Sequence record: OQ174504.1
Direction: 5' to 3' (one strand)
Length of the DNA: 64,000 nt
Source: Escherichia phage REP5
Shown here: in pieces, positions 2,646 to 62,544 of the stretch
Layout of the letters: each line of letters starts with the position of its first letter
Numbering within the stretch: position 1 is the first letter of the stretch
Translations under genes and position numbers: made by a program
The notes under the pieces: generated by a model
Database searches by the model: none
Seen by the model: only the letters and a program-made list of their open reading frames with translations
Told to the model about the DNA's origin: nothing

Positions 2646-10688
<8,043 letters not shown>

Positions 10689-22386: not shown

Positions 22387-22462
22387 TAAAATAACTTGGA
22401 GAATCCGAAGGGACTCGAACCCTTATAAACCTGTTTTGCAGACAGGCACATATCCATTTCTG
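22387..22462 (-). tRNA. tRNA-Cys (GCA)
   Basis: Manual fold: acceptor GAATCCG/CGGATTC, anticodon stem CCTGT/ACAGG, loop CTGCAAA, T-loop TTCGAGT, encoded CCA. Confidence 0.6.
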
Positions 22463-22466
22463 TCAC

Positions 22467-22559
22467 GGATTCAAATTGGAGGAAGATACCAGACTTGAAC
22501 TGGTACACCGATTTCTCAGCTACTGGCAGTTTAGCAAACTGCTCCCTTACCTTTTAGGG
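22467..22559 (-). tRNA. tRNA-Ser (GCU), type II
   Basis: Acceptor GGAAGAT/ATCTTCC, anticodon stem GCAGT/ACTGC, loop TTGCTAA, long variable arm, CCA. Confidence 0.6.
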
Positions 22560-22570
22560 TTAATCTTCCA

Positions 22571-23305
22571 TTATTTCTGTAATGCGCTCTTCATTTCTGG
22601 TGTTGCAATAGTGTCAATTACACCAGTTTTACAAGCATCATCAAACCAGTCTGGTAAGATACCTGCTAAGAACCCATTGATATTCGTTTTAAGGTACTCT
22701 GCAATAAGGGCAGCTTCTTCTTCAATCATCTGCACAACTTCATCTGCATAAGCTGTAATCTTTGAGATACCTTCATTAATCTTGCTAACAGCTTGGTTAG
22801 CTAAATCAGAAACAGTATCAAGACCTTTATCAATAGCATCTTGTAAGTCACTTAATACATCATTAACACCGTCTAGTGCACTGTTCATCATGTCAATAGC
22901 TTTTTGACCATGTTCTGTAGCAACACCCATAATACCACTGAATGGTGTACAACCAACTTGTTCTCCTGCTGCACCCATAACATTGGAATACCCCTTTGCT
23001 ACCTGCATACGTGATGAAAACTCATCAATAGACTTTTGACCGTAGTCTGTTAGGGTCTTAGTAGTTGCTGTAGTGCTTGTAAGGCTTGTTGTAAAGCTGT
23101 TTAGAAGGACTGTTGTAAGTCCAGCAGCAACAAGTTTCTCCTTCATTGTAGGGTCTGTTACAGAACTAATAGAGCTTACAAGTGATGTAGAAGCAGCTAC
23201 GGTTCCACCGAGGACTGCTGCACCAGTAATAAGTGGGTTAGAAAACCCTTTACCGGTTTTTAAGAGATTAAAAATCTCCTTACCTTGTTCTGTCATCTCT
23301 TTCAT
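22571..23305 (-). CDS. hypothetical protein embedded in tRNA cluster
   Basis: ORF 22571..23368 trimmed to an internal Met to avoid overlap with tRNA-Phe. Confidence 0.35.
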   Translation of the reverse strand: MKEMTEQGKEIFNLLKTGKGFSNPLITGAAVLGGTVAASTSLVSSISSVTDPTMKEKLVAAGLTTVLLNSFTTSLTSTTATTKTLTDYGQKSIDEFSSRMQVAKGYSNVMGAAGEQVGCTPFSGIMGVATEHGQKAIDMMNSALDGVNDVLSDLQDAIDKGLDTVSDLANQAVSKINEGISKITAYADEVVQMIEEEAALIAEYLKTNINGFLAGILPDWFDDACKTGVIDTIATPEMKSALQK

Positions 23306-23323
23306 TAAGCACCTTTGAAATTG

Positions 23324-23398
23324 GTAGTCCAGTGGGATTTGAACCCTCTTCTCATGTTTTTCAGACACGCGCTTTAACCATATAAGCTACTTGGACTA
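23324..23398 (-). tRNA. tRNA-Phe (GAA)
   Basis: Acceptor TAGTCCA/TGGACTA, anticodon stem CGTGT/ACATG, loop CTGAAAA, T-loop TTCAAAT. Confidence 0.55.
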
Positions 23399-23403
23399 TA
23401 AAT

Positions 23404-23479
23404 TGGGGTGACCTACGGGATTTGAACCCGTATAGACCATGTTCACAGCATGGGTCATTACCATTTATGATAAGGCCAC
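23404..23479 (-). tRNA. tRNA-His (GUG)
   Basis: D-stem TCAT/ATGA, anticodon stem CCATG/CATGG, loop CTGTGAA, CCA. Confidence 0.6.
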
Positions 23480-23510
23480 ATTTAAGGATTCTCGTAAGAA
23501 CCCTTAGAAG

Positions 23511-23586
23511 TGGCAGCGGCATAAGGATTTGAACCTTAATAGGACAGCTTCAGAGACTGTTGCATTGCCAGTTATGCTATACCGCT
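23511..23586 (-). tRNA. tRNA-Gln (CUG)
   Basis: D-stem GCAT/ATGC, anticodon stem ACAGT/GCTGT, loop CTCTGAA, T-arm TAAGG-TTCAAAT-CCTTA. Confidence 0.55.
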
Positions 23587-23591
23587 AAATT

Positions 23592-23670
23592 TGGTACTCC
23601 ATATCGGATTCGAACCGATACATAACACAGATTTTAAGTCTGGCCTCTCTGCCAATTGGAGTAATGGAGC
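23592..23670 (-). tRNA. tRNA with anticodon UAA (Leu-type) but short variable arm
   Basis: Anticodon helix CAGA/TCTG with loop CTTAAAA; Leu-like D-arm CCAATTGGCAGAG; A73; T-arm ATCGG-TTCGAAT-CCGAT; no long extra arm. Confidence 0.45.
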
Positions 23671-23672
23671 AT

Positions 23673-23748
23673 TGGCGGGGGATGTTGGAATTGAACCAAC
23701 TTCTTCGATTTCAAAGACCGAGGTTTTAACCTTGTAAACTAATCCCCT
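23673..23748 (-). tRNA. tRNA-Gln (UUG)
   Basis: Anticodon stem TCGGT/ATCGA, loop CTTTGAA, T-arm GTTGG-TTCAATT-CCAAC. Confidence 0.5.
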
Positions 23749-23756
23749 TTAAATCT

Positions 23757-24314
23757 TTACTTTCTCAGTGGATGAATAAAGAATGCCAACATAACTCTTT
23801 CCCTTGAGAATGCTCTTTCTTCTGGGACAACGCTTTTTAGTTTCCATCCAATATAAATTCTCCAGTAAAACTGTTTACCAAAGACTTTAATTGATGGGAT
23901 AAAAGCGAATAATCCCCAAGCATTACTGTTCCACATTAGGAGATAACCAGTCTGATTATCTTCAGGGTCAGAACTTACGTTGATATTACCTTTCCACTTA
24001 GTAACATCTTTTACATCTCTTCCTAATACATGGTAAGAGAAGTTATAAGCTTTGTTTCTCCAGAGCCACCCAACTCTCTGCATATAGACACCAAGCTTAC
24101 CAATCTTTCTAATTTTAGCCCATCGTTTAACGTGACCTTCATCACCATCAATTGGGTTGTCATATGTCTCCATCCATCTGAAGCCGAAAGGTAAGTGTCC
24201 TTTCTTCTCACTGTAAAATGGAACTACGAAAGGTGCTAAGATAACTGCTAAGATTGCTGCAAATGGCTCTAACAAAGCTAATAAAATCCATGAAGCATAC
24301 TTCAAATATCTCAT
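23757..24314 (-). CDS. membrane protein embedded in tRNA cluster
   Basis: 185-aa ORF with hydrophobic N-terminus ILLALLEPFAAILAVILAPFVVPF. Confidence 0.4.
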   Translation of the reverse strand: MRYLKYASWILLALLEPFAAILAVILAPFVVPFYSEKKGHLPFGFRWMETYDNPIDGDEGHVKRWAKIRKIGKLGVYMQRVGWLWRNKAYNFSYHVLGRDVKDVTKWKGNINVSSDPEDNQTGYLLMWNSNAWGLFAFIPSIKVFGKQFYWRIYIGWKLKSVVPEERAFSRERVMLAFFIHPLRK

Positions 24315-24333
24315 CTAAATAGCCTCTTTAAAT

Positions 24334-24409
24334 TGGCGCAGGATAAGGGATTCGAACCCCTATTAACAGCTTCGTAGACTGTTGCTCTATCCATTTGAAC
24401 TAATCCTGC
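24334..24409 (-). tRNA. tRNA-Arg (ACG)
   Basis: Acceptor GCAGGAT/ATCCTGC, anticodon stem ACAGT/GCTGT, loop CTACGAA. Confidence 0.6.
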
Positions 24410-24414
24410 AAAAT

Positions 24415-24492
24415 TGGTGTTCCAAGACGGATTCGAACCGTCACTAGTACAAGGTTTGAGCTTGCATCCTCTGCCAATTGGGATACTGGAAC
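24415..24492 (-). tRNA. tRNA with anticodon CAA (Leu-type) but short variable arm
   Basis: Anticodon stem GCAAG/CTTGT, loop CTCAAAC; D-arm CCAATTGGCAGAGG; A73. Confidence 0.45.
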
Positions 24493-24493
24493 A

Positions 24494-24568
24494 TGGTACT
24501 CACTAAAGGACTTGAACCTTTTTCTTCATCTTGTAAGGGTGGTGTTTTACCATATAAACTAAGCGAGT
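24494..24568 (-). tRNA. tRNA-Val (UAC)-like, weak anticodon stem
   Basis: Loop CTTACAA; anticodon stem CCACC/GATGA has two C-A mismatches; acceptor and T-arm intact. Confidence 0.4.
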
Positions 24569-24571
24569 ATG

Positions 24572-24658
24572 AAAGAGGTCTGAAGTTGTGCCGCTAACTC
24601 AACTCCGTGGAATTTGTTACGGTCTTCAGTTGACACCAGCGGTCTTTCACTTGACCTC
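24572..24658 (-). ncRNA. tRNA-like structured element / possible pseudo-tRNA
   Basis: 7-bp terminal helix AGAGGTC/GACCTCT enclosing ~73 nt with internal hairpins but no canonical T-loop. Confidence 0.2.
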
Positions 24659-24663
24659 TGAAT

Positions 24664-24740
24664 TGGTGCTGCTCACAGGACTCGAACCCGCATTTCCATC
24701 CTTACAAGGGATGTGTAATAGCCAATTATACGAAAGCAGC
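24664..24740 (-). tRNA. tRNA-Thr (UGU)
   Basis: Anticodon stem CATCC/GGATG, loop CTTGTAA. Confidence 0.6.
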
Positions 24741-24747
24741 ATTAATT

Positions 24748-24822
24748 TGGAGCATCCAGAGGGAATCGAACCCTCAACCTCAGTTTGGAAGACTGTAATT
24801 TTCCCGTTTAAACTATGGATGC
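24748..24822 (-). tRNA. tRNA-Gly (UCC)
   Basis: Acceptor GCATCCA/TGGATGC, loop CTTCCAA. Confidence 0.6.
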
Positions 24823-24828
24823 ACTAAT

Positions 24829-24904
24829 TGGTGGAGAAGCAGGGAATTGAACCCTGTACTTAAGTTTGCAAAACTTATGTTTTAACCATGTAAACTACAT
24901 CCCC
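24829..24904 (-). tRNA. tRNA-Ala (UGC)
   Basis: Anticodon stem TAAGT/ACTTA, loop TTTGCAA; G3-U70 wobble pair present. Confidence 0.6.
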
Positions 24905-24910
24905 AATGTC

Positions 24911-24986
24911 TGGTACAGGTGGAGGGAATTGAACCCATCGTCTTACTGATTAAGAGTCAGCCGCATAACCATTTTGCTACACCTGC
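24911..24986 (-). tRNA. tRNA-Lys (CUU)
   Basis: Anticodon stem GCTGA/TCAGT, loop CTCTTAA. Confidence 0.5.
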
Positions 24987-24993
24987 ATTAATT

Positions 24994-25071
24994 TGGTAGG
25001 AGACAAGGGATTCGAACCCTCAAACATCTCGTTCTAAGCGAGATAGGTTTACCAATTACCGTCAATCTCCC
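24994..25071 (-). tRNA. tRNA with anticodon UAG (Leu-type) but short variable arm
   Basis: Anticodon stem TCTCG/CGAGA, loop CTTAGAA; D-arm GTAATTGGTAAAC; A73; 5-nt variable region. Confidence 0.45.
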
Positions 25072-25316
25072 ATTAAGTCTTTTTAGAGAACTTCTAAGAA
25101 CCTAAGCAACAAGGTTCCACAACAAGCTGTAATAACCTTAGAAGCCCTCTAAAAAGACCTAAAAAGGTCTTTGCATAGTCTTGTTTAATCCGGTGACTAG
25201 AACCTTTGGAGAGCTTGATATTATCTCTTCTCCGTGACACCTACTAGGTGTTTTATCAATGTGTACAACAATACACGCGGTATACCAAAGCAACATCCGA
25301 ATGAAGCTTGGCTTTA

Positions 25317-25406
25317 AATCTTATTAGGCGGTAAGTAAAGGAGTCGAACCCTCACCGTATCTCTACAGTGGCAACTGTTTTCAAGACAGTTTGGCTACCA
25401 TTAGCC
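25317..25406 (-). tRNA. tRNA-Ser (UGA), type II
   Basis: Anticodon stem ACTGT/ACAGT, loop CTTGAAA, ~20-nt variable arm, T-loop TTCGACT. Confidence 0.55.
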
Positions 25407-25429
25407 GCTACCTACCCCTAATAAGACTT

Positions 25430-25512
25430 TGGCATGGGACGGAGGAGTTGAACCCCTTTGAAACGGTGTTGGAAGCCGTTGCTCATGCCTTAGAGTCTTA
25501 ACATCGTCCCAT
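25430..25512 (-). tRNA. atypical tRNA-like gene (Gly-UCC-like loop with 2-nt expansion)
   Basis: Acceptor ATGGGAC/GTCCCAT with CCA; T-arm AGGGG-TTCAACT-CCTCC; anticodon helix ACGG/CCGT enclosing 9-nt loop CTTCCAACA. Confidence 0.3.
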
Positions 25513-25644
25513 ACTATAATTCGAAGCTTACCGTATTATCTCAACACTGTAAAGCCCCTTCTCAGATTATTTACATGTTCTGGAAAACATGAGATACAGA
25601 CCACCTCCCTACAGGAAGACCCGCTTAGGTCGTCTAAGTAATCT

Positions 25645-25721
25645 GCTAACTATTTGGCACACCCTACAGGATTCGAACCTGTAACTCAATGATTAGAAGT
25701 CATTTGCTCTGTCCAGTTGAA
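25645..25721 (-). tRNA. tRNA-Arg (UCU)
   Basis: Anticodon stem AATGA/TCATT, loop CTTCTAA. Confidence 0.6.
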
Positions 25722-25934
25722 CTAAGGGTGCATTAATCTTTAAAGACTCTCTTAGAAAGCCCTTAAAGATGCCCACCTTATTAATCATACCGTGGGCTAG
25801 TACGCCAAATTCTTTGATGAGGGATTGGAAGACCTCACTGGTGTTTAGCCTATCAAGCTACTGCCAGAAAAACATTGTCGTTTGCATTTATTTTAAATTT
25901 GCAAAATAGACGCTACGCAACGAAAACTAAGGTT

Positions 25935-25963
25935 ACTATAAAGTGGTCACATCTCAGTGTCAA
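25935..25963 (-). promoter_or_regulatory. sigma70-like promoter inside tRNA cluster
   Basis: Minus-strand TTGACA, 17-nt spacer, TATAGT; points leftward into a ~200-nt leader then tRNA-Arg(UCU). Confidence 0.4.
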
Positions 25964-25978
25964 CAACTTTATTGAAAT

Positions 25979-26054
25979 TGGTACTGTGAGAAGGATTCGA
26001 ACCTTCTGCCTTTCGGTTATCAGCCGAATGCACATCCATATGTGCTTTCACAGC
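25979..26054 (-). tRNA. tRNA-Ile (GAU)
   Basis: D-stem GCAC/GTGC, anticodon stem TTCGG/CCGAA, loop CTGATAA. Confidence 0.6.
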
Positions 26055-26056
26055 TT

Positions 26057-26133
26057 TGGAGGTTCAGATGGGAATCGAACCCACATTCATAGGGCTTATG
26101 AGACCCTTGCATTACCTTATCTGCGACTGAACC
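26057..26133 (-). tRNA. tRNA-Met (CAU)
   Basis: Acceptor GGTTCAG/CTGAACC, anticodon stem AGGGT/GCCCT, loop CTCATAA. Confidence 0.55.
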
Positions 26134-26137
26134 ATTT

Positions 26138-26213
26138 TGGTAGAAGTGGAGGGATTCGAACCCATCGCCTGTCAGATTAAAAGTCTGCCGCATCACCATT
26201 CTGCTACACTTCC
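26138..26213 (-). tRNA. tRNA-Lys (UUU)
   Basis: Anticodon helix GCAG/CTGA-type with loop CTTTTAA; T-loop TTCGAAT; CCA. Confidence 0.55.
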
Positions 26214-26217
26214 ATTA

Positions 26218-26361
26218 AATTATCTTTGTAGATAAGCTACCCAGACTTGCTTAAGGTCTGTAGCGATGTGCCTTGTTGGGTTTAAATCTAGAATTTACCC
26301 TTTCACCCTTTGTGGTCGCATACTCACAGGTAAGCTTAATAACTTATCTACAAAGATAATT
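26218..26361. repeat. 19-bp perfect inverted repeat (AATTATCTTTGTAGATAAG) flanking ~106 bp
   Basis: Left arm 26218-26236 is the exact reverse complement of right arm 26343-26361. Confidence 0.6.
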
Positions 26362-26400
26362 ACCAGACCGTTGTTTATCATCTTAAGTGCTACCATTACA

Positions 26401-26440
26401 CCAACTCGACATCTGCCGAGTGAAGGAATCGAACCTTCAC
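26401..26440 (-). pseudogene. tRNA remnant (3' half only)
   Basis: Intact T-arm GAAGG-TTCGATT-CCTTC and acceptor-like 3' strand, but no complementary 5' acceptor found upstream. Confidence 0.25.
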
Positions 26441-26474
26441 CTTTTCTTTACCGGAGAAATAGATTGTTTAAGTT

Positions 26475-26497
26475 TTGCTGTAAACGGTCTTCTGTAA
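26475..26497. repeat. tRNA-cluster repeat element, copy 1
   Basis: TTGCTGTAAACGGTCTTCTGTAAA. Confidence 0.55.
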
Positions 26498-26563
26498 ATT
26501 TGTTGAGCCAGACCAAGTTTTAAATTTTTCAAAATTAAATTGGCTTGAAATTTTCATACGTTC

Positions 26564-26586
26564 TTGCTGTATTTGGTCTTCTGCTC
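26564..26586. repeat. tRNA-cluster repeat element, copy 2 (diverged)
   Basis: TTGCTGTATTTGGTCTTCTGCTC. Confidence 0.45.
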
Positions 26587-26643
26587 CTTTAAAGAATACT
26601 CGTAAGAACTCTTTAAGGGAGGGGCTAAATAGCCCTCTCAAAA

Positions 26644-26729
26644 TTGGCGGCTACGATGAGACTTGAACTCACATCATCTCCCAATATCCTTTTACGTGGG
26701 AGTATTTTAACCAAATTAAACTACATAAC
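26644..26729 (-). tRNA. type II tRNA, anticodon unresolved (possibly degenerate)
   Basis: 86 nt; acceptor GGTTATG/CGTAGCC with CCA; T-arm GTGAG-TTCAAGT-CTCAT; Leu-like D-arm; anticodon region CACGTAAAA with only a 3-bp stem. Confidence 0.35.
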
Positions 26730-26734
26730 CTTTA

Positions 26735-26822
26735 TTGGTGTGCCGTGTAGGAGTCGAACCTACCGAGTCTCAATGACAAGGGATTTACAGTCCCCACCGC
26801 TACCATCTACGGGATAACGACA
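26735..26822 (-). tRNA. tRNA-Tyr (GUA), type II
   Basis: Anticodon stem GGGGA/TCCCT, loop CTGTAAA, long variable arm, T-arm GTAGG-TTCGACT-CCTAC, CCA. Confidence 0.55.
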
Positions 26823-26830
26823 CATTTAAA

Positions 26831-26906
26831 TTTGCGGTTAGTCAGGGATTCGAACCCTGTGCCATTCGCTTAACAGGCGACCGCACATACCTTATGTGCT
26901 TCCTAA
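26831..26906 (-). tRNA. tRNA-Asn (GUU)
   Basis: D-stem GCAC/GTGC, anticodon stem GTCGC/GCGAA (one mismatch), loop CTGTTAA. Confidence 0.55.
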
Positions 26907-26966
26907 CCATATTTAGTATTACCAGACCGTATCTTTCAATTTTTTCCGCTAAAAATTTGATAAGTG

Positions 26967-26990
26967 TTGCTGTAAACGGTCTTCTGTAAA
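26967..26990. repeat. tRNA-cluster repeat element, copy 3
   Basis: TTGCTGTAAACGGTCTTCTGTAAA, directly abutting the 3' end of the tRNA at 26992. Confidence 0.55.
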
Positions 26991-26991
26991 A

Positions 26992-27068
26992 TTGGAGGCG
27001 GGTGCAGGAGTCGAACCTGCCGATACCATGCTAATGAGACATGTGAGACGCCCTTTCTCTATACCCGC
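26992..27068 (-). tRNA. second CAU-anticodon tRNA (Met, fMet or Ile2)
   Basis: D-stem GAGA/TCTC, anticodon stem CATGT/GCATG, loop CTCATTA; 1-72 mismatch. Confidence 0.5.
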
Positions 27069-27133
27069 AATTCTTAATGACCAGACCAAATCTCTTCTTT
27101 GTCCGATTTACCTTCAGATGAATAAGATTAAGT

Positions 27134-27157
27134 TTGCTGTAATTGGTCTTCTGTCAA
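27134..27157. repeat. tRNA-cluster repeat element, copy 4
   Basis: TTGCTGTAATTGGTCTTCTGTCAA, abutting the 3' end of tRNA-Glu. Confidence 0.5.
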
Positions 27158-27160
27158 AAC

Positions 27161-27238
27161 TGGCGTTCCAGAAGGGATTTGAACCCTCAGATATCCACTT
27201 TGAAAGAGTGGTGACTATACCATTTTGTCTACTGGAAC
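27161..27238 (-). tRNA. tRNA-Glu (UUC)
   Basis: Acceptor GTTCCAG/CTGGAAC, anticodon stem CCACT/AGTGG, loop CTTTCAA. Confidence 0.6.
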
Positions 27239-27245
27239 ATTAATT

Positions 27246-27325
27246 TGGTCTCCGTTGAAGGATTTGAACCCTCGACCCCTTGCTCCCAAAGCAAGTGCTG
27301 CTAAACCAAACTGAGCTAAACGGAG
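27246..27325 (-). tRNA. tRNA-Pro (UGG)
   Basis: Anticodon stem CTTGC/GCAAG, loop TTTGGGA, T-arm GAGGG-TTCAAAT-CCTTC, CCA. Confidence 0.55.
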
Positions 27326-27490: not shown

Positions 27491-28906
27491 TTACCAGATG
27501 TAACGGTCAATCGTTACTGCTTTGAGCATTACGCTGATTGGGTCAAACTTCTCACCACCAAGCAGAGCTTTTAAAGTGGCTGGAGAGAACCCTGATACCA
27601 TTGCTACACCGTTATCCTTAACAGATACTTCGCAAGTACCATTACGGTTTGCTAAGTACCAGAATACCAGTTGTGGCATCTCATATCCAGCTTTTTTGTA
27701 CTTACTCTGAATTGCTTCAAAGTTTGTACGACCGTTAGCTCCATCAACCTGATTGAACTCCATATCGGAGAAGATGATAAGCTTACTTGGCATATCTTTC
27801 TGAGTCAAGTTGTTTCTCTTACCTGTCTCAAGGATGCGGTCAAAAGCTGCTTGTAAGTTAGTTGAACCATATTCAACATGTCGCATCACCTGACGGTGAC
27901 GGTTCTTTAAATCGCCACTCAGTTCGATGAAATGAGGGTTTGTTGAATAAACCATTAACTCGTTCTTAAAGCAACCTGTATTGCGTTCTGCTACATACAA
28001 GGCAAGTGATACACCAATATCAAGGGCAGTAATTGAGCCAAAATTCACCCAAGACATTGAACTTGAAACATCAGACATACATAGAATGTTTTCACCCTCT
28101 GCCATCCAGTTTGGTAGTGCTTTCCACTGCTCATTAGCAACATCTGCATTACCATACTTAACAGATTTAATCACATCGTATGGATAAACAGCACCAGCGT
28201 TAATCTTAGTCTCACCCTTTGATAAGGACTCGATGTAAGCTTTGTAACGCTCTCCATCTTTACGGTTAAACAGTTTTTGGTAACGTGCAGCAGCAAGTGA
28301 AGGAATCTTACTGTAGTCAATATTACCAAACTCATTAGCAGAGATTTTTTGCTCAACTGTATCAGATAGTGCAGACAATAGTGTGCGGTACTCTTTCTCA
28401 CTCAAGTTGGCAAACTTGCAGAAACGTTTTACAAACTGCTTATGACGTGGTTTGACTCGTGGTAACCACTTAGCTGCTAAACCTGCTGTTGCAGGGTCTA
28501 GTAAAGCTGCTTCTAAATGTTTGAAGGCATCTGTCTCGAAACGAGTACCTACAAAGATTTTGAAGTCATCAAAACGACCAAGTTCTGCAATCTTATCCAT
28601 AATGCGAAGAACCTGCGTAGGCTCTAAAACTTTATCTTCAATCGCTTGAAGTAAAACAGTTCGGAAAGCTTTACGCTCACCCATACCCTCTCGTACATCT
28701 CGCATATGCAGTAAAATACGAACTGCAACATCAACATCCTCATGCAAAGCTTTGTAGAACAAGTCTGGTAAGATTTCTACATTGCTACGGCTAGAACCAG
28801 CAGCTTTGTAAAAGTCCACAAGAGCAGACATTGATGAAGTATGGTTTACAGCACCATTTTCAGTTCGACCTGCATGAAGGTGCGCATGTTTAAATAACTC
28901 GCTCAT
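27491..28906 (-). CDS. vWA-like (DUF2828-type) protein
   Basis: 471-aa ORF; MIDAS-like DxSxS motif in CMSDVSSSM. Confidence 0.5.
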   Translation of the reverse strand: MSELFKHAHLHAGRTENGAVNHTSSMSALVDFYKAAGSSRSNVEILPDLFYKALHEDVDVAVRILLHMRDVREGMGERKAFRTVLLQAIEDKVLEPTQVLRIMDKIAELGRFDDFKIFVGTRFETDAFKHLEAALLDPATAGLAAKWLPRVKPRHKQFVKRFCKFANLSEKEYRTLLSALSDTVEQKISANEFGNIDYSKIPSLAAARYQKLFNRKDGERYKAYIESLSKGETKINAGAVYPYDVIKSVKYGNADVANEQWKALPNWMAEGENILCMSDVSSSMSWVNFGSITALDIGVSLALYVAERNTGCFKNELMVYSTNPHFIELSGDLKNRHRQVMRHVEYGSTNLQAAFDRILETGKRNNLTQKDMPSKLIIFSDMEFNQVDGANGRTNFEAIQSKYKKAGYEMPQLVFWYLANRNGTCEVSVKDNGVAMVSGFSPATLKALLGGEKFDPISVMLKAVTIDRYIW

Positions 28907-61031: not shown

Positions 61032-61347
61032 CTTGTTGTTCAGGTAAGTTCGCTAAGCTTACCCCGCTTTATTCAAGCTGCTTACTGTCGCCAGTAAGTC
61101 CAGACTATATCTTCTACTTATTTCTAAGTAGCGTACCATTTCGAGTCGCTTGACCCTACACCGCTACATTCATCACGGTTAGTCGTTCGGCATTTAGATG
61201 TATTCAAACTCATATTCGAAGTTATTTGGCATGTAAGACCCCTATGTTGTATAGTTTCTTACATCGTACATCATTTAGCACAGGATTGTCTACATCTGTA
61301 GAGTTTCCCTGTTTAGGCACGTTTTAGATGAGCTATAGAGCTTGTTA
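61032..61347 (-). other. group I intron (ORF-less) in nrdD
   Basis: 316 nt between exons; P/Q/R/S-like elements TGCCTAAACAGGGAAA, AATCCTGTGC, GAACGACTAACC, AAGATATAGTC; P9-like hairpin CTTACTG-GCGA-CAGTAAG; 5' exon ends in U, intron ends in G. Confidence 0.65.
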
Positions 61348-62544
61348 ACCCATCGGCGAAATAACCTTGCCAGAACGCTCAAAAGCTTCTGCTACAGCAC
61401 CATGACCAGATACACTTAAGAAGTCTGGATACATTGCTTTAGAACAACACTCAATAGCTTTACTGTACAGGTGGCCTTGACAGATATTCTCATTGTGTCT
61501 CTTCTGGTCATAAATATAAACCAGTTTAGGGAATACAACAGGCTTCTTGCTCTTACCTTGTCCATTCATACGAACATCTAGGAGAGTACTTGCAATCATG
61601 TATTGCAGTCGGTTGTCTTCATTAGACATGTCTGAGTCAAGTAACCCAAATGTCAAAGTTGTGAATGCAAAATCCCCACGACTACAAGGTACAGTATTTA
61701 GTTTCATTTCAAGTGACTGGAAACCTTGAGTTAGCTCAATCTGTAGCTGCTCCATGACATAATTGTGGTGATGTTCTTTAGGAATACCATAAGATGCTGC
61801 TTTCTCAGCATGATAGCGTAGAGACTTCTTAGCATACGGTACAAGTACCTTATCAATCTCTGCTAAAGTAAAGCCACCAAATTGCTGTGCAGTTGCTGAA
61901 AGTACTACGTCACCAATAACCTGTAAGGCTGATAGTACAGATTTAGGTTCACAGTATTCAATGCCAGACATTTCAAAGCCACCTTTCAGTACTTTACCAA
62001 TGTCAAACAGGCAACAGTTGATACCACCAAAAATTAGGTCTCTTAAATCATGGATATAGATAAACCCTTTTTCAATGGCTTCCAATTCCTCTGGTGTTAA
62101 ATGGTACTGTTTAAAGATTTCTTTAGTCAGGTAACCACGGATAATTGAACCTTTCGTAGAAATTAAACTGCTGTCAAAGTTAGCATTTTCACGGTCACCT
62201 AAGAAGAGTGTATCTTTAGTCTTCTGGTAGAGTTCATCCCAGTTTTGAGCAACCTCTTTACGGTAATTTCTATATGTTGAGTAAGACTCATAAATCTCGT
62301 GATTGACTTCTGCCAAAGCACCCTCAACAATACTGTGAATATCATTTACTGAAACGAGTAAATTATTCTGCTTAGTAGATTTTACCAGAATCCTCATAAA
62401 TGCTGACTCAAGAGCTTGAGTAACATCTGGTGGAAGCTCTTTATAACCAACTCTGTTAGCTGACTTTGTGACTGCTGCTAAAACTTTTTTGATATCAGGT
62501 TCTTCAAGTGAGCCATTCTTTTTAATAATCTGTACTTTGTTCAT
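61348..62544 (-). CDS. nrdD: anaerobic ribonucleoside-triphosphate reductase, exon 1 (ATP-cone N-terminus)
   Basis: N-terminal ATP-cone-like VQIIKKNGSLEEPDIKKV; exon ends ...VISPMG before intron. Confidence 0.75.

What the first reader, a model, noticed from the sequence alone, without database searches (positions are those of the whole stretch)
24572..26729. Degenerate or atypical tRNA-like genes scattered through the cluster
Four loci look tRNA-derived but non-canonical: 24572-24658 (7-bp terminal helix, no T-loop), 25430-25512 (Gly-UCC-like loop expanded to 9 nt, CTTCCAACA), 26401-26440 (T-arm and 3' acceptor strand with no 5' half) and 26644-26729 (type II scaffold with a poorly paired anticodon stem around CACGTAAAA). 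They may be pseudogenes, decoys, frameshift-capable tRNAs or other structured RNAs.
Basis: seen in the sequence. Interest (0 to 1): 0.4.

Follow-up and report, generated by a model that had tools for sequence, protein, structure and literature searches.

The report
Hidden Y-like RNAs and odd tRNAs
The four 'degenerate tRNAs' in this phage's tRNA island are four different things, and one of them is the tRNA-shaped part of a previously unmapped family of small RNAs that sit beside a divergent Ro60-like protein in hundreds of phages.

Summary
The window is Escherichia phage REP6 (Felixounavirus); its tRNA island is on the minus strand. All four loci exist, but they are four different things.

ACAGCAA elements accompany this protein in very distant phages (Mycobacterium, Listeria, Campylobacter, Klebsiella), with strong covariation (27 of 31 pairs). 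They work like YrlA Y RNAs but lack YrlA's GNCGAA motif.

Locus 2 is a conserved, unannotated, non-canonical tRNA-Trp(CCA)-like gene. Locus 4 is a natural allele of tRNA-Asp whose anticodon loop is replaced by 15 nt (9 of 173 genomes). Locus 1 is a conserved rod-like hairpin, not tRNA-like and independent of the Ro-like gene.

Binding, expression and function were not tested.

The parts
27491..28906 (-). Gene for a divergent Ro60-like protein (471 aa: helical-repeat ring plus vWA domain). Ortholog of Bas63 gp130.
26359..26495 (-). Element D, a YrlA-like RNA. Closing helix AGACCGUU (26490-26483) / AACGGUCU (26372-26365); ss motif ACAGCAA (26481-26475); AC-like hairpin (26459-26443); T-arm (26438-26422); closed 7-bp acceptor hairpin (26421-26404); D-arm (26401-26387).
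   Evidence: Sequence and fold. Within the genus, 97.7% of cells pair and 3 of 7 acceptor pairs are compensatory. CM R1 finds homologs in distant phages. In alignment A3, 95.2% pair, 27 of 31 pairs show double-sided change, and 0 of 500 shuffles reach this.
27077..27154 (-). Element A, a short Y-like paralog: AGACCAA-UU-ACAGCAA...UUGGUCU-GG.
   Evidence: R1 34.9 bits.
26918..26987 (-). Element B, a short Y-like paralog: AGACCGU-UU-ACAGCAA...ACGGUCU-GG.
   Evidence: R1 44 bits.
26505..26586 (-). Element C, a short Y-like paralog: AGACCAA-AU-ACAGCAA...UUGGUCU-GG.
   Evidence: Orthologs in relatives.
25430..25512 (-). Locus 2, a non-canonical tRNA-Trp(CCA)-like gene. A1-U72, G73, encoded CCA, 10-nt connector GAUGUUAAGA, 3-bp D-stem, 9-nt anticodon loop (31:39 unpaired), normal T-arm.
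   Evidence: E. coli tRNA-Trp reference checked. Present in 235 phage records and almost never annotated. Missed by ARAGORN and Rfam.
26645..26730 (-). Locus 4, an allele of tRNA-Asp in which the loop CUGUCAC is replaced by the 15-nt ACGUAAAAGGAUAUU.
   Evidence: Rfam tRNA 44.3 bits with a 15-nt insert. Alignment to the relatives' tRNA-Asp(GTC). Allele found in 9 of 173 records.
24574..24659 (-). Locus 1, a conserved rod-like hairpin RNA element with a 7-bp terminal helix and apical loop AACAAAUUCC.
   Evidence: z = -3.34. Present in 259 phage records. No covariation within the genus. One compensatory change and two wobble changes in the Vequintavirinae phage TH18 copy.

Best explanation
The four loci are four different things embedded in one non-coding RNA island.

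(1) Locus 3 belongs to element D. This is one of four paralogous small RNAs (A-D, 26359-27154) that share a module: a 7-8-bp helix AGACCRN/NYGGUCU, a 2-nt spacer, then single-stranded ACAGCAA. I infer that this module is the binding site for the Ro60-like protein encoded immediately upstream. I also infer that the RNAs act as that protein's Y RNAs, docking on the ring and presenting a variable effector module. In D the effector module is a complete, circularly permuted tRNA mimic (T-arm, closed 7-bp acceptor hairpin, D-arm, AC-like hairpin), the same topology as YrlA. By analogy with M. smegmatis YrlA, the 7-bp hairpin could be opened by RNase P and given a CCA end.

Shown: the RNA structures, their covariation, the strand- and position-specific association with the gene across distant phages, and the Ro60 fold.

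Inferred: binding, expression, processing, and any role in the anti-Ppl defence function reported for Bas63 gp130.

(2) Locus 2 is the island's missing tRNA-Trp(CCA). It is structurally non-canonical but conserved, and probably functional.

(3) Locus 4 is the tRNA-Asp ortholog with its anticodon loop replaced, so it cannot decode GAY normally. It is either a recent pseudogene or a repurposed tRNA-like RNA.

(4) Locus 1 is an independent, sequence-constrained hairpin RNA of phage tRNA islands. Its function is unknown.
For: Protein: Ro60 fold, with DUF2828/DUF7788 as the only sequence families.

RNA family:
- Exactly four canonical copies in 64 kb, all in the island on the gene's strand.
- In 75 loci whose protein is 39-47% identical, ACAGCAA occurs 69 times on the gene strand within -1000..+500 nt, against 6 on the other strand.
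- The strict helix geometry holds at 46 of 73 sites, against 22% of random and 10% of opposite-strand sites.
- The same elements flank the gene in Mycobacterium phage Krypton555, Listeria A511, Campylobacter F361 and Klebsiella KP13-26.
- D-type structure: 27 of 31 pairs covary, 95% paired against about 40% for slid controls.
- Natural control: Wc4-1 (same subfamily) has neither the gene nor the elements.

Literature: Bas63 gp130 is Ro60-like and counters Ppl, and the authors guessed that Y RNAs hide among the tRNAs. Listeria phage CKA15 has three very highly transcribed unannotated regions upstream of its Rsr-like gene. YrlA topology is T-arm, closed acceptor stem, D-arm.

Locus 2: 99.4% paired, 6 of 19 pairs compensatory, 0 of 500 shuffles. 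CCA stays at the anticodon position even in Wc4-1. Its A1-U72, G73 and CUCCAAA loop match E. coli tRNA-Trp. Trp and Asp are the only amino acids missing from the ARAGORN list.

Locus 4.

Locus 1.
Against: - No expression, binding or processing data exist for this phage.
- The canonical Ro-binding motifs (GGUCCGA, GNCGAAN0-1G) are absent, and Rfam matches no Y-RNA family.
- The protein-RNA link rests on co-location and co-absence only. tRNA islands are general hotspots for ncRNA genes, so neighbourhood alone is weaker than it looks.
- Alignment A3 was fitted to the model, which inflates pairing somewhat.
- Exact ACAGCAA within 800 nt was found in only 40 of 75 divergent loci.
- Locus 2 fails every automated tRNA test (best: tRNA-Sec 16.9 bits). 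It has a 10-nt connector and an unpaired 31:39, so aminoacylation and decoding are unproven.
- Locus 1 has almost no informative variation.
Confidence: 0.72

Rival explanations
1. All four loci are decaying tRNA pseudogenes left by duplication and deletion in a fast-evolving tRNA island. They have no function of their own.
For: Locus 4 has lost its anticodon loop. Locus 2 fails the tRNA covariance models. The depositors' tools call these sites inconsistently: tRNA-OTHER, Thr or Tyr.
Against: Loci 2 and 3 show compensatory changes in several helices and are kept across genera. Locus 1 is about 96% identical across lineages in which element D drops to 73-88%. Element D's architecture recurs next to the same protein in phages of Actinobacteria and other Proteobacteria.
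Confidence: 0.07
2. Element D is a genuine circularly permuted tRNA gene, as in Cyanidioschyzon merolae. Its transcript is circularised and re-opened to give a working tRNA, for example tRNA-Thr(GGU).
For: All four arms are present in permuted order, with a 7-bp acceptor stem and a 7-nt loop reading GGU in several relatives. The REP6 record calls it tRNA-Thr GGT.
Against: The AC-like hairpin is the least conserved part: 82% paired, loop sequence variable, and replaced altogether in L021 and L022. No conserved discriminator or CCA follows the 3' acceptor strand. The enclosing ACAGCAA module is shared with short paralogs that have no tRNA part. From my own knowledge, no bulge-helix-bulge splicing endonuclease is known in E. 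coli or these phages.
Confidence: 0.06
3. The ACAGCAA elements are real structured RNAs, but they do not bind the Ro-like protein. They are processing or stability elements, or independent sRNAs of tRNA islands, and lie beside the gene only because non-coding genes cluster together.
For: Most loci also have tRNAs nearby. Locus 1 shows that island RNAs can exist without the Ro-like gene.
Against: The elements follow the gene whether the tRNAs are upstream, downstream or nearly absent (L030, Krypton555, F361). They are always on the gene's strand. They are missing from a sister phage that has the tRNA island but not the gene. Their topology matches YrlA, the known partner RNA of Ro60 proteins.
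Confidence: 0.12
4. Locus 2 is not a decoding tRNA-Trp. It is a specialised tRNA-like RNA, such as a nuclease decoy, a quadruplet or frameshift decoder using its 9-nt loop, or a primer-like or regulatory RNA.
For: The 31:39 pair is never Watson-Crick (C.A or C.C), so the 9-nt loop is itself conserved. The 10-nt connector is invariant. All tRNA finders fail on it.
Against: CCA is invariant at positions 34-36, with U33 and A37. G73 and CCA-3' are present. Trp is otherwise missing from a nearly complete tRNA set.
Confidence: 0.2

Closest known systems
YrlA (Y RNA-like A) of S. Typhimurium, M. smegmatis and mycobacteriophages (Chen et al. 2014, PMC4201824; Wang et al. 2018, bioRxiv 10.1101/312249)
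   Same: Encoded next to, and co-directional with, a Ro60-fold protein. The 5' and 3' ends pair to form a protein-binding module. The effector module is a circularly permuted tRNA mimic in the order T-arm, closed-loop acceptor stem, D-arm. Shorter paralogs lack the tRNA part (YrlB-like). The acceptor stem is 7 bp, as in M. smegmatis YrlA.
   Different: The 5'-strand motif is ACAGCAA after an AGRNNNN helix, not GNCGAAN0-1G or GGUCCGA. The partner protein is DUF2828/DUF7788 with no TROVE match. Element D has a separate AC-like hairpin rather than an AC stem formed by the two strands. No Rfam model matches. There are up to five copies per locus.
Thermus phage phiLo Ro60 with Yrl1 and Yrl2 (PMC12135203)
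   Different: phiLo's protein is TROVE-annotated and its Yrls carry the CGAA motif. No tRNA-like module is reported for them.
Bas63 gp130 (PhageMaP preprint, PMC11482910)
   Same: The orthologous gene in the same position in a Felixounavirus. It is reported as Ro60-like and as a counter to the Ppl defence system. The authors guessed that Y RNAs hide in the tRNA stretch.
   Different: No RNA was identified there. The candidates found here lie in the 'spacers', or under small opposite-strand ORFs, and not among the annotated tRNA genes.
E. coli tRNA-Trp(CCA)
   Same: Locus 2 shares A1-U72, G73, CCA-3', the anticodon CCA, and (in most relatives) the exact loop CUCCAAA.
   Different: A 10-nt connector instead of 2 nt between the acceptor and D stems. 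A 3-bp D-stem. 31:39 unpaired. A49.C65 mismatch. Below threshold for every tRNA model.
Circularly permuted tRNA genes of Cyanidioschyzon merolae and Thermofilum (as cited in 10.1101/312249)
   Same: The 3' half precedes the 5' half, and the acceptor stem is initially a closed hairpin.
   Different: Those are matured into decoding tRNAs by a splicing endonuclease and ligase. Here the anticodon-like loop is not conserved, and the ends carry a conserved protein-binding-type module.

Membership tests
YrlA / bacterial Y RNA | Encoded within about 4 kb of, and on the same strand as, a Ro60 ortholog | tested here: met
   Elements A-D lie 337-2547 nt downstream of the Ro60-fold gene on the same strand. 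The same holds in 40 of 75 divergent loci and in four cultured phages.
YrlA / bacterial Y RNA | Partner protein is a recognisable TROVE-domain Ro60 | tested here: not met
   No TROVE hit at E<=10 in five diverse members; only DUF2828 + DUF7788. The fold is nonetheless Ro60.
YrlA / bacterial Y RNA | GNCGAAN0-1G (or GGUCCGA) motif near the 5' end | tested here: not met
   The conserved motif is ACAGCAA. G.CGAA is absent from the elements.
YrlA / bacterial Y RNA | tRNA-like module ordered T-arm, closed acceptor stem, D-arm, with the 5' and 3' ends paired | tested here: met
   Topology as described.
YrlA / bacterial Y RNA | Match to a curated Y-RNA covariance model | tested here: inconclusive
   No Y-RNA family appears among Rfam hits at E<=10. 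I could not confirm which Y-RNA models Rfam 15 holds.
YrlA / bacterial Y RNA | Bound by the Ro60 protein; modified by TruB and DusA | not testable with these tools
   Needs RIP/CLIP and modification mapping.
Canonical bacterial tRNA (locus 2) | 7-bp acceptor stem, discriminator, CCA end, 5-bp T-stem with UUCRANY loop | tested here: met
   The T-stem is 4 bp plus an A.C mismatch.
Canonical bacterial tRNA (locus 2) | 2-nt connector (positions 8-9), 4-bp D-stem, 5-bp anticodon stem with a 7-nt loop | tested here: not met
   10-nt connector, 3-bp D-stem, 31:39 unpaired in all lineages.
Canonical bacterial tRNA (locus 2) | Scores above threshold with tRNA detectors | tested here: not met
   ARAGORN finds none, even at -ps85. 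The Rfam tRNA model gives no hit; tRNA-Sec gives 16.9 bits against a threshold of 47.
Canonical bacterial tRNA (locus 2) | Aminoacylation by TrpRS and decoding of UGG | not testable with these tools
   Identity features (CCA anticodon, G73, A1-U72) are present.
tRNA-Asp(GUC) (locus 4) | Orthologous position and tRNA body | tested here: met
   Same slot after tRNA-Tyr. The acceptor, D and T arms align with the relatives' tRNA-Asp. Rfam tRNA 44.3 bits.
tRNA-Asp(GUC) (locus 4) | 7-nt anticodon loop with GUC | tested here: not met
   The loop is ACGUAAAAGGAUAUU, 15 nt between the stem strands.

The most novel reading that the evidence does not exclude
ACAGCAA-box RNAs are the cognate Y RNAs of a sequence-divergent Ro60 family (DUF2828/DUF7788). 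That family is found in about 700 cultured phages infecting Proteobacteria, Firmicutes, Actinobacteria and Campylobacter. TROVE-based surveys missed this class. In Felixounavirus the RNP, and not the protein alone, would be the anti-Ppl counter-defence. Its D-type member would be a permuted tRNA mimic that RNase P can open into a two-piece, CCA-ended tRNA-like RNA.
Probability: 0.4. Interest if true: 0.8.

Novelty: new variant of a known kind. Interest (0 to 1): 0.65.

Why it matters
- It turns a published guess ('some Bas63 tRNA genes may be Y RNAs') into specific, testable RNAs with coordinates, a consensus motif and a structure model.
- It suggests that Ro60/Y-RNA-type RNPs are much more common in phages than TROVE-based searches indicated.
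- It shows that 'spacers', and small opposite-strand ORFs, in phage tRNA islands can be ncRNA genes.
- It adds a conserved tRNA-Trp-like gene that every annotation pipeline misses. This matters for studies of phage tRNA repertoires and of evasion of tRNA-targeting defences.

Tried and rejected
- Rfam at gathering and permissive thresholds gave no informative family for loci 1-3.
- ARAGORN with introns or lowered thresholds only re-called locus 4 as Tyr(GTA) and produced spurious intron models.
- PDB sequence and profile searches of the protein found nothing. The single-sequence AF2 model was unusable, pLDDT 45.
- My first, lenient helix search around ACAGCAA was uninformative: 73% of random positions also scored. 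I replaced it with a strict-geometry test.
- Reading the conserved TTTACAGAAGACC as a sigma-70 promoter was rejected. Promoter and terminator hits were no more frequent than in shuffles, and the helix covaries with a distant 3' partner.
- Locus 1 as a fifth Y-like paralog or Ro-dependent RNA was rejected as a firm claim. It is not hit by R1, lacks ACAGCAA, and occurs in TH18, which has no Ro-like gene.
- Host complementarity of locus 1: none.
- The origin of the locus 4 insert within the window: no second copy.
- Supplements of Chen et al. 2014 and the 2020 Annual Review are not held. I could not check whether any DUF2828-type phage was in their list of 22 phages.
- CKA15 coordinates could not be mapped onto the ACAGCAA elements.
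Full report
**Identity and layout**

The window is Escherichia phage REP6 (OQ174505.1, Felixounavirus) at identical coordinates. A tRNA island lies on the minus strand at 22397-27325. ARAGORN finds 25 tRNAs, covering every amino acid except Trp and Asp. Rfam adds one more tRNA hit at 26648-26730. The four loci of the finding lie in the 'spacers' between these genes.

**Locus 3 is part of a larger RNA**

Read on the minus strand, the T-arm (GAAGG-UUCGAUU-CCUUC, 26438-26422) is followed by:
- ACUCGGC-AGAU-GUCGAGU, a closed 7-bp acceptor-like hairpin (26421-26404);
- 'UG';
- a D-arm, GUGU-AAUGGUA-GCAC (26401-26387).

Upstream of the T-arm is an anticodon-like hairpin (26459-26443). The whole unit is enclosed by the helix AGACCGUU/AACGGUCU. 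The 5' strand of that helix is followed by single-stranded UACAGCAA. So the '5' half' is present but permuted.

Three shorter units share the same closing module (AGACCRN-NU-ACAGCAA...NYGGUCU-GG):
- A, 27077-27154;
- B, 26918-26987;
- C, 26505-26586.

In the 64-kb window only these four sites have this geometry.

The REP6 record's 131-nt 'tRNA-Thr GGT' at 26414-26544 is a mis-call built on part of element D.

**The neighbouring gene**

The gene at 27491-28906 (471 aa, annotated 'RNA-binding protein') matches only Pfam DUF2828 and DUF7788, and PHROG 850. It has no TROVE hit even at E<=10 and no PDB sequence hit.

An AlphaFold2 model built from a 36-sequence alignment is confident (pLDDT 88.7, pTM 0.88).
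- The nine best Foldseek matches are all Ro60/TROVE structures over the full length (TM up to 0.65, 11-16% identity).

The gene is therefore a sequence-divergent Ro60-fold protein.

It is the positional ortholog of bas63_0130. The PhageMaP preprint reports Bas63 gp130 as Ro60-like and as a counter to the Ppl defence system. [quoted passage not shown] Bas63 carries elements D, B and A. Element D lies under an opposite-strand hypothetical ORF.

**Generality of the protein-RNA association**

The protein family occurs in 709 cultured-phage records:

| Host genus in phage name | Records |
|---|---|
| Escherichia | 119 |
| Mycobacterium (annotated 'Ro-like RNA binding protein' in the listed examples) | 95 |
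| Salmonella | 77 |
| Vibrio | 56 |
| Listeria | 54 |
| Staphylococcus | 42 |
| Campylobacter | 40 |
| Enterococcus | 36 |
| Bacillus | 28 |
| Aeromonas | 23 |

In 75 metagenomic viral loci whose protein is only 39-47% identical:
- ACAGCAA occurs 69 times on the gene's strand within -1000..+500 nt of the gene, against 6 times on the other strand.
- A helix of at least 7 bp ending exactly 2 nt before the motif is present at 46 of 73 sites, against 22% of random positions and 10% of opposite-strand sites.
- The consensus is 5'-AGRNNNN-NU-ACAGCAA...NNNNYCU-G, with the inner helix pairs differing from locus to locus.

The same elements flank the gene in cultured phages:
- Mycobacterium phage Krypton555: three, the middle one D-type;
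- Listeria phage A511: three;
- Campylobacter phage F361: two;
- Klebsiella phage KP13-26: five, two of them D-type.

They also occur in loci L030-L034.

**Structure of the D-type RNA**

A covariance model built from 13 Felixounavirus D sequences finds full-length matches in many divergent loci. All are on the gene's strand: 67, 60, 55, 50, 47, 44... bits.

| Alignment | Cells paired | Slid controls | Double-sided changes | Covariation score | Shuffles reaching it |
|---|---|---|---|---|---|
| 21 sequences across divergent phages | 95.2% | about 40% | 27 of 31 pairs | 0.549 (slid 0.05-0.10) | 0 of 500 |
| 13 sequences within the genus | 97.7% | 43-51% | 3 of 7 acceptor-hairpin pairs | 0.117 | 0 of 500 |

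Within the genus the acceptor hairpin alone has three unrelated sequences, all of which pair.

The divergent alignment was fitted to the model, so it leans toward the structure. The gap to the slid controls is nonetheless large.

**Natural control**

Pectobacterium phage Wc4-1 (same subfamily) has the tRNA island. It has no homolog of the protein anywhere in its genome (best tblastn E = 0.33) and no helix-enclosed ACAGCAA element in the island.

**Comparison with the known (YrlA)**

YrlA RNAs are encoded beside Ro60. They carry a GNCGAAN0-1G motif and a tRNA-like module ordered T stem-loop, closed-loop acceptor stem, D stem-loop. They are described as resembling circularly permuted tRNAs. M. 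smegmatis YrlA, which has a 7-bp stem, is cut by RNase P and receives CCA.

Element D has that topology and a 7-bp stem. It lacks the motif, matches no Rfam Y-RNA model, and partners a non-TROVE protein.

Chen et al. searched only genomes with TROVE-annotated proteins, so this family would have been out of scope. Their supplementary lists were not available to me.

I therefore file A-D as working like Y RNAs (YrlA-like and YrlB-like), but as a new variant and not as members of the YrlA family.

Independent hints of expression come from Listeria phage CKA15. Three of the most highly transcribed regions of its genome are unannotated. They lie within 2 kb upstream of, and co-directional with, its Rsr-like gene, whose protein is also found in virions. 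I could not map those regions onto the ACAGCAA elements.

**Locus 2**

Locus 2 is conserved in 235 phage records, including Felix O1 and Bas63, and is almost never annotated.

Its structure is:
- A1-U72 in a 7-bp acceptor stem, G73 and an encoded CCA;
- an invariant 10-nt connector, GAUGUUAAGA;
- a 3-bp D-stem;
- the stem AACGG/CCGUU under a 9-nt loop;
- a 5-nt variable loop and a normal T-arm.

On nine distinct sequences, 99.4% of cells pair and 6 of 19 pairs show double-sided changes (0 of 500 shuffles; none in slid controls). These include the D-stem change CUC/GAG to CAC/GUG and a fully swapped anticodon stem.

The most distant homolog (Wc4-1) changes acceptor pairs 1-72 and 2-71 and both inner stems compensatorily. 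It keeps the connector and the 9-nt loop.

The loop is C|CUCCAAA|A in most relatives, C|UUCCAAC|A here, and C|UUCCAAA|C in Wc4-1. That places U33, the anticodon CCA and A37 in register, with 31:39 never Watson-Crick.

CUCCAAA, A1-U72 and G73 are the features of E. coli tRNA-Trp. I verified that sequence against 5,426 genomes. Trp is otherwise absent from the island.

The best reading is a non-canonical tRNA-Trp(CCA), not a Gly-UCC derivative. All detectors miss it, and charging is untested.

**Locus 4**

Relatives have tRNA-Asp(GTC) at this position, with the anticodon arm CUCCC-CUGUCAC-GGGAG. REP6 has CUCCC-ACGUAAAAGGAUAUU-GGGAG on an otherwise intact body.

The allele occurs in 9 of 173 records (REP6-12, Shigella phage Tf, Salmonella phage FGS030). 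The loop is identical in all of them, and the few other substitutions keep the pairing. Depositors call it OTHER, Thr or Tyr.

It cannot decode normally. Pseudogene and repurposed tRNA-like RNA cannot be told apart here.

**Locus 1**

Locus 1 is a rod-like hairpin (z = -3.34) present in 259 records. It is nearly invariant within the genus, with no covariation.

A copy that is 81% identical sits in the tRNA island of the Vequintavirinae phage TH18.
- It has one double-sided change in the terminal helix (G-C to U-A).
- It has two wobble-compatible changes.
- Its 27-nt apical core is identical.

TH18 has no Ro-like gene, and Wc4-1 lacks locus 1. The host genome has no complementary target.

Locus 1 is a real, sequence-constrained RNA or DNA element. 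It is not tRNA-derived, not tied to the Ro-like system, and of unknown function. It shares the 9-mer GAAGACCGU with elements B and D, which remains unexplained.

**Verdict**

This had been anticipated only as a guess in the literature available to me.

Noticed in passing
window 61081-61462 (-): Group I catalytic intron, Rfam RF00028, 53.6 bits (gathering score 50).
   Followed up: no
window 25073-25162 and 26218-26361: Two long inverted repeats in other island spacers: 26-nt arms at 88% complementarity with 38 nt between them, and 22-nt arms at 95% with 100 nt between them. They may be further structured RNAs. The first also gives miRNA-precursor-like Rfam hits.
   Followed up: partly
window 26414-26544 (-): The REP6 GenBank record annotates a 131-nt 'tRNA-Thr GGT' here. 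It is an artefact built on element D's AC-like hairpin and T-arm.
   Followed up: yes
L115 (Bas63) 2511-2663: The opposite-strand hypothetical CDS bas63_0137 overlaps element D (R1 164 bits at 2539-2675). It is probably a spurious ORF.
   Followed up: partly
window 26736-26823 and 26993-27069 (-): ARAGORN's tRNA-Tyr and one tRNA-Met do not reach the Rfam tRNA gathering score. The Tyr gene scores only as tRNA-Sec, 29.6 bits.
   Followed up: no
L121 (Listeria phage A511) 1410-2070: A 660-nt unannotated gap with a strong promoter-like site lies upstream of the three ACAGCAA elements. It may correspond to the 492-nt most-transcribed region reported for phage CKA15. The CKA15 Rsr-like protein was also detected in virions.
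   Followed up: partly
L116 (Pectobacterium phage Wc4-1) ~4085-4190: An unannotated type II tRNA-Ser(UGA)-like sequence directly follows the locus 2 homolog.
   Followed up: no
L123 (Klebsiella phage KP13-26) 2510-2584: The record annotates a 'tRNA-Pyl' in the tRNA island next to the Ro-like gene.
   Followed up: no
TH18 genome (L127) ~10265 (-): A single site, AGAAAGU-GC-ACAGCAA...GCUUUCU-GU, fits the element consensus in a phage with no Ro-like gene. It is antisense to a CDS and is probably chance.
   Followed up: no
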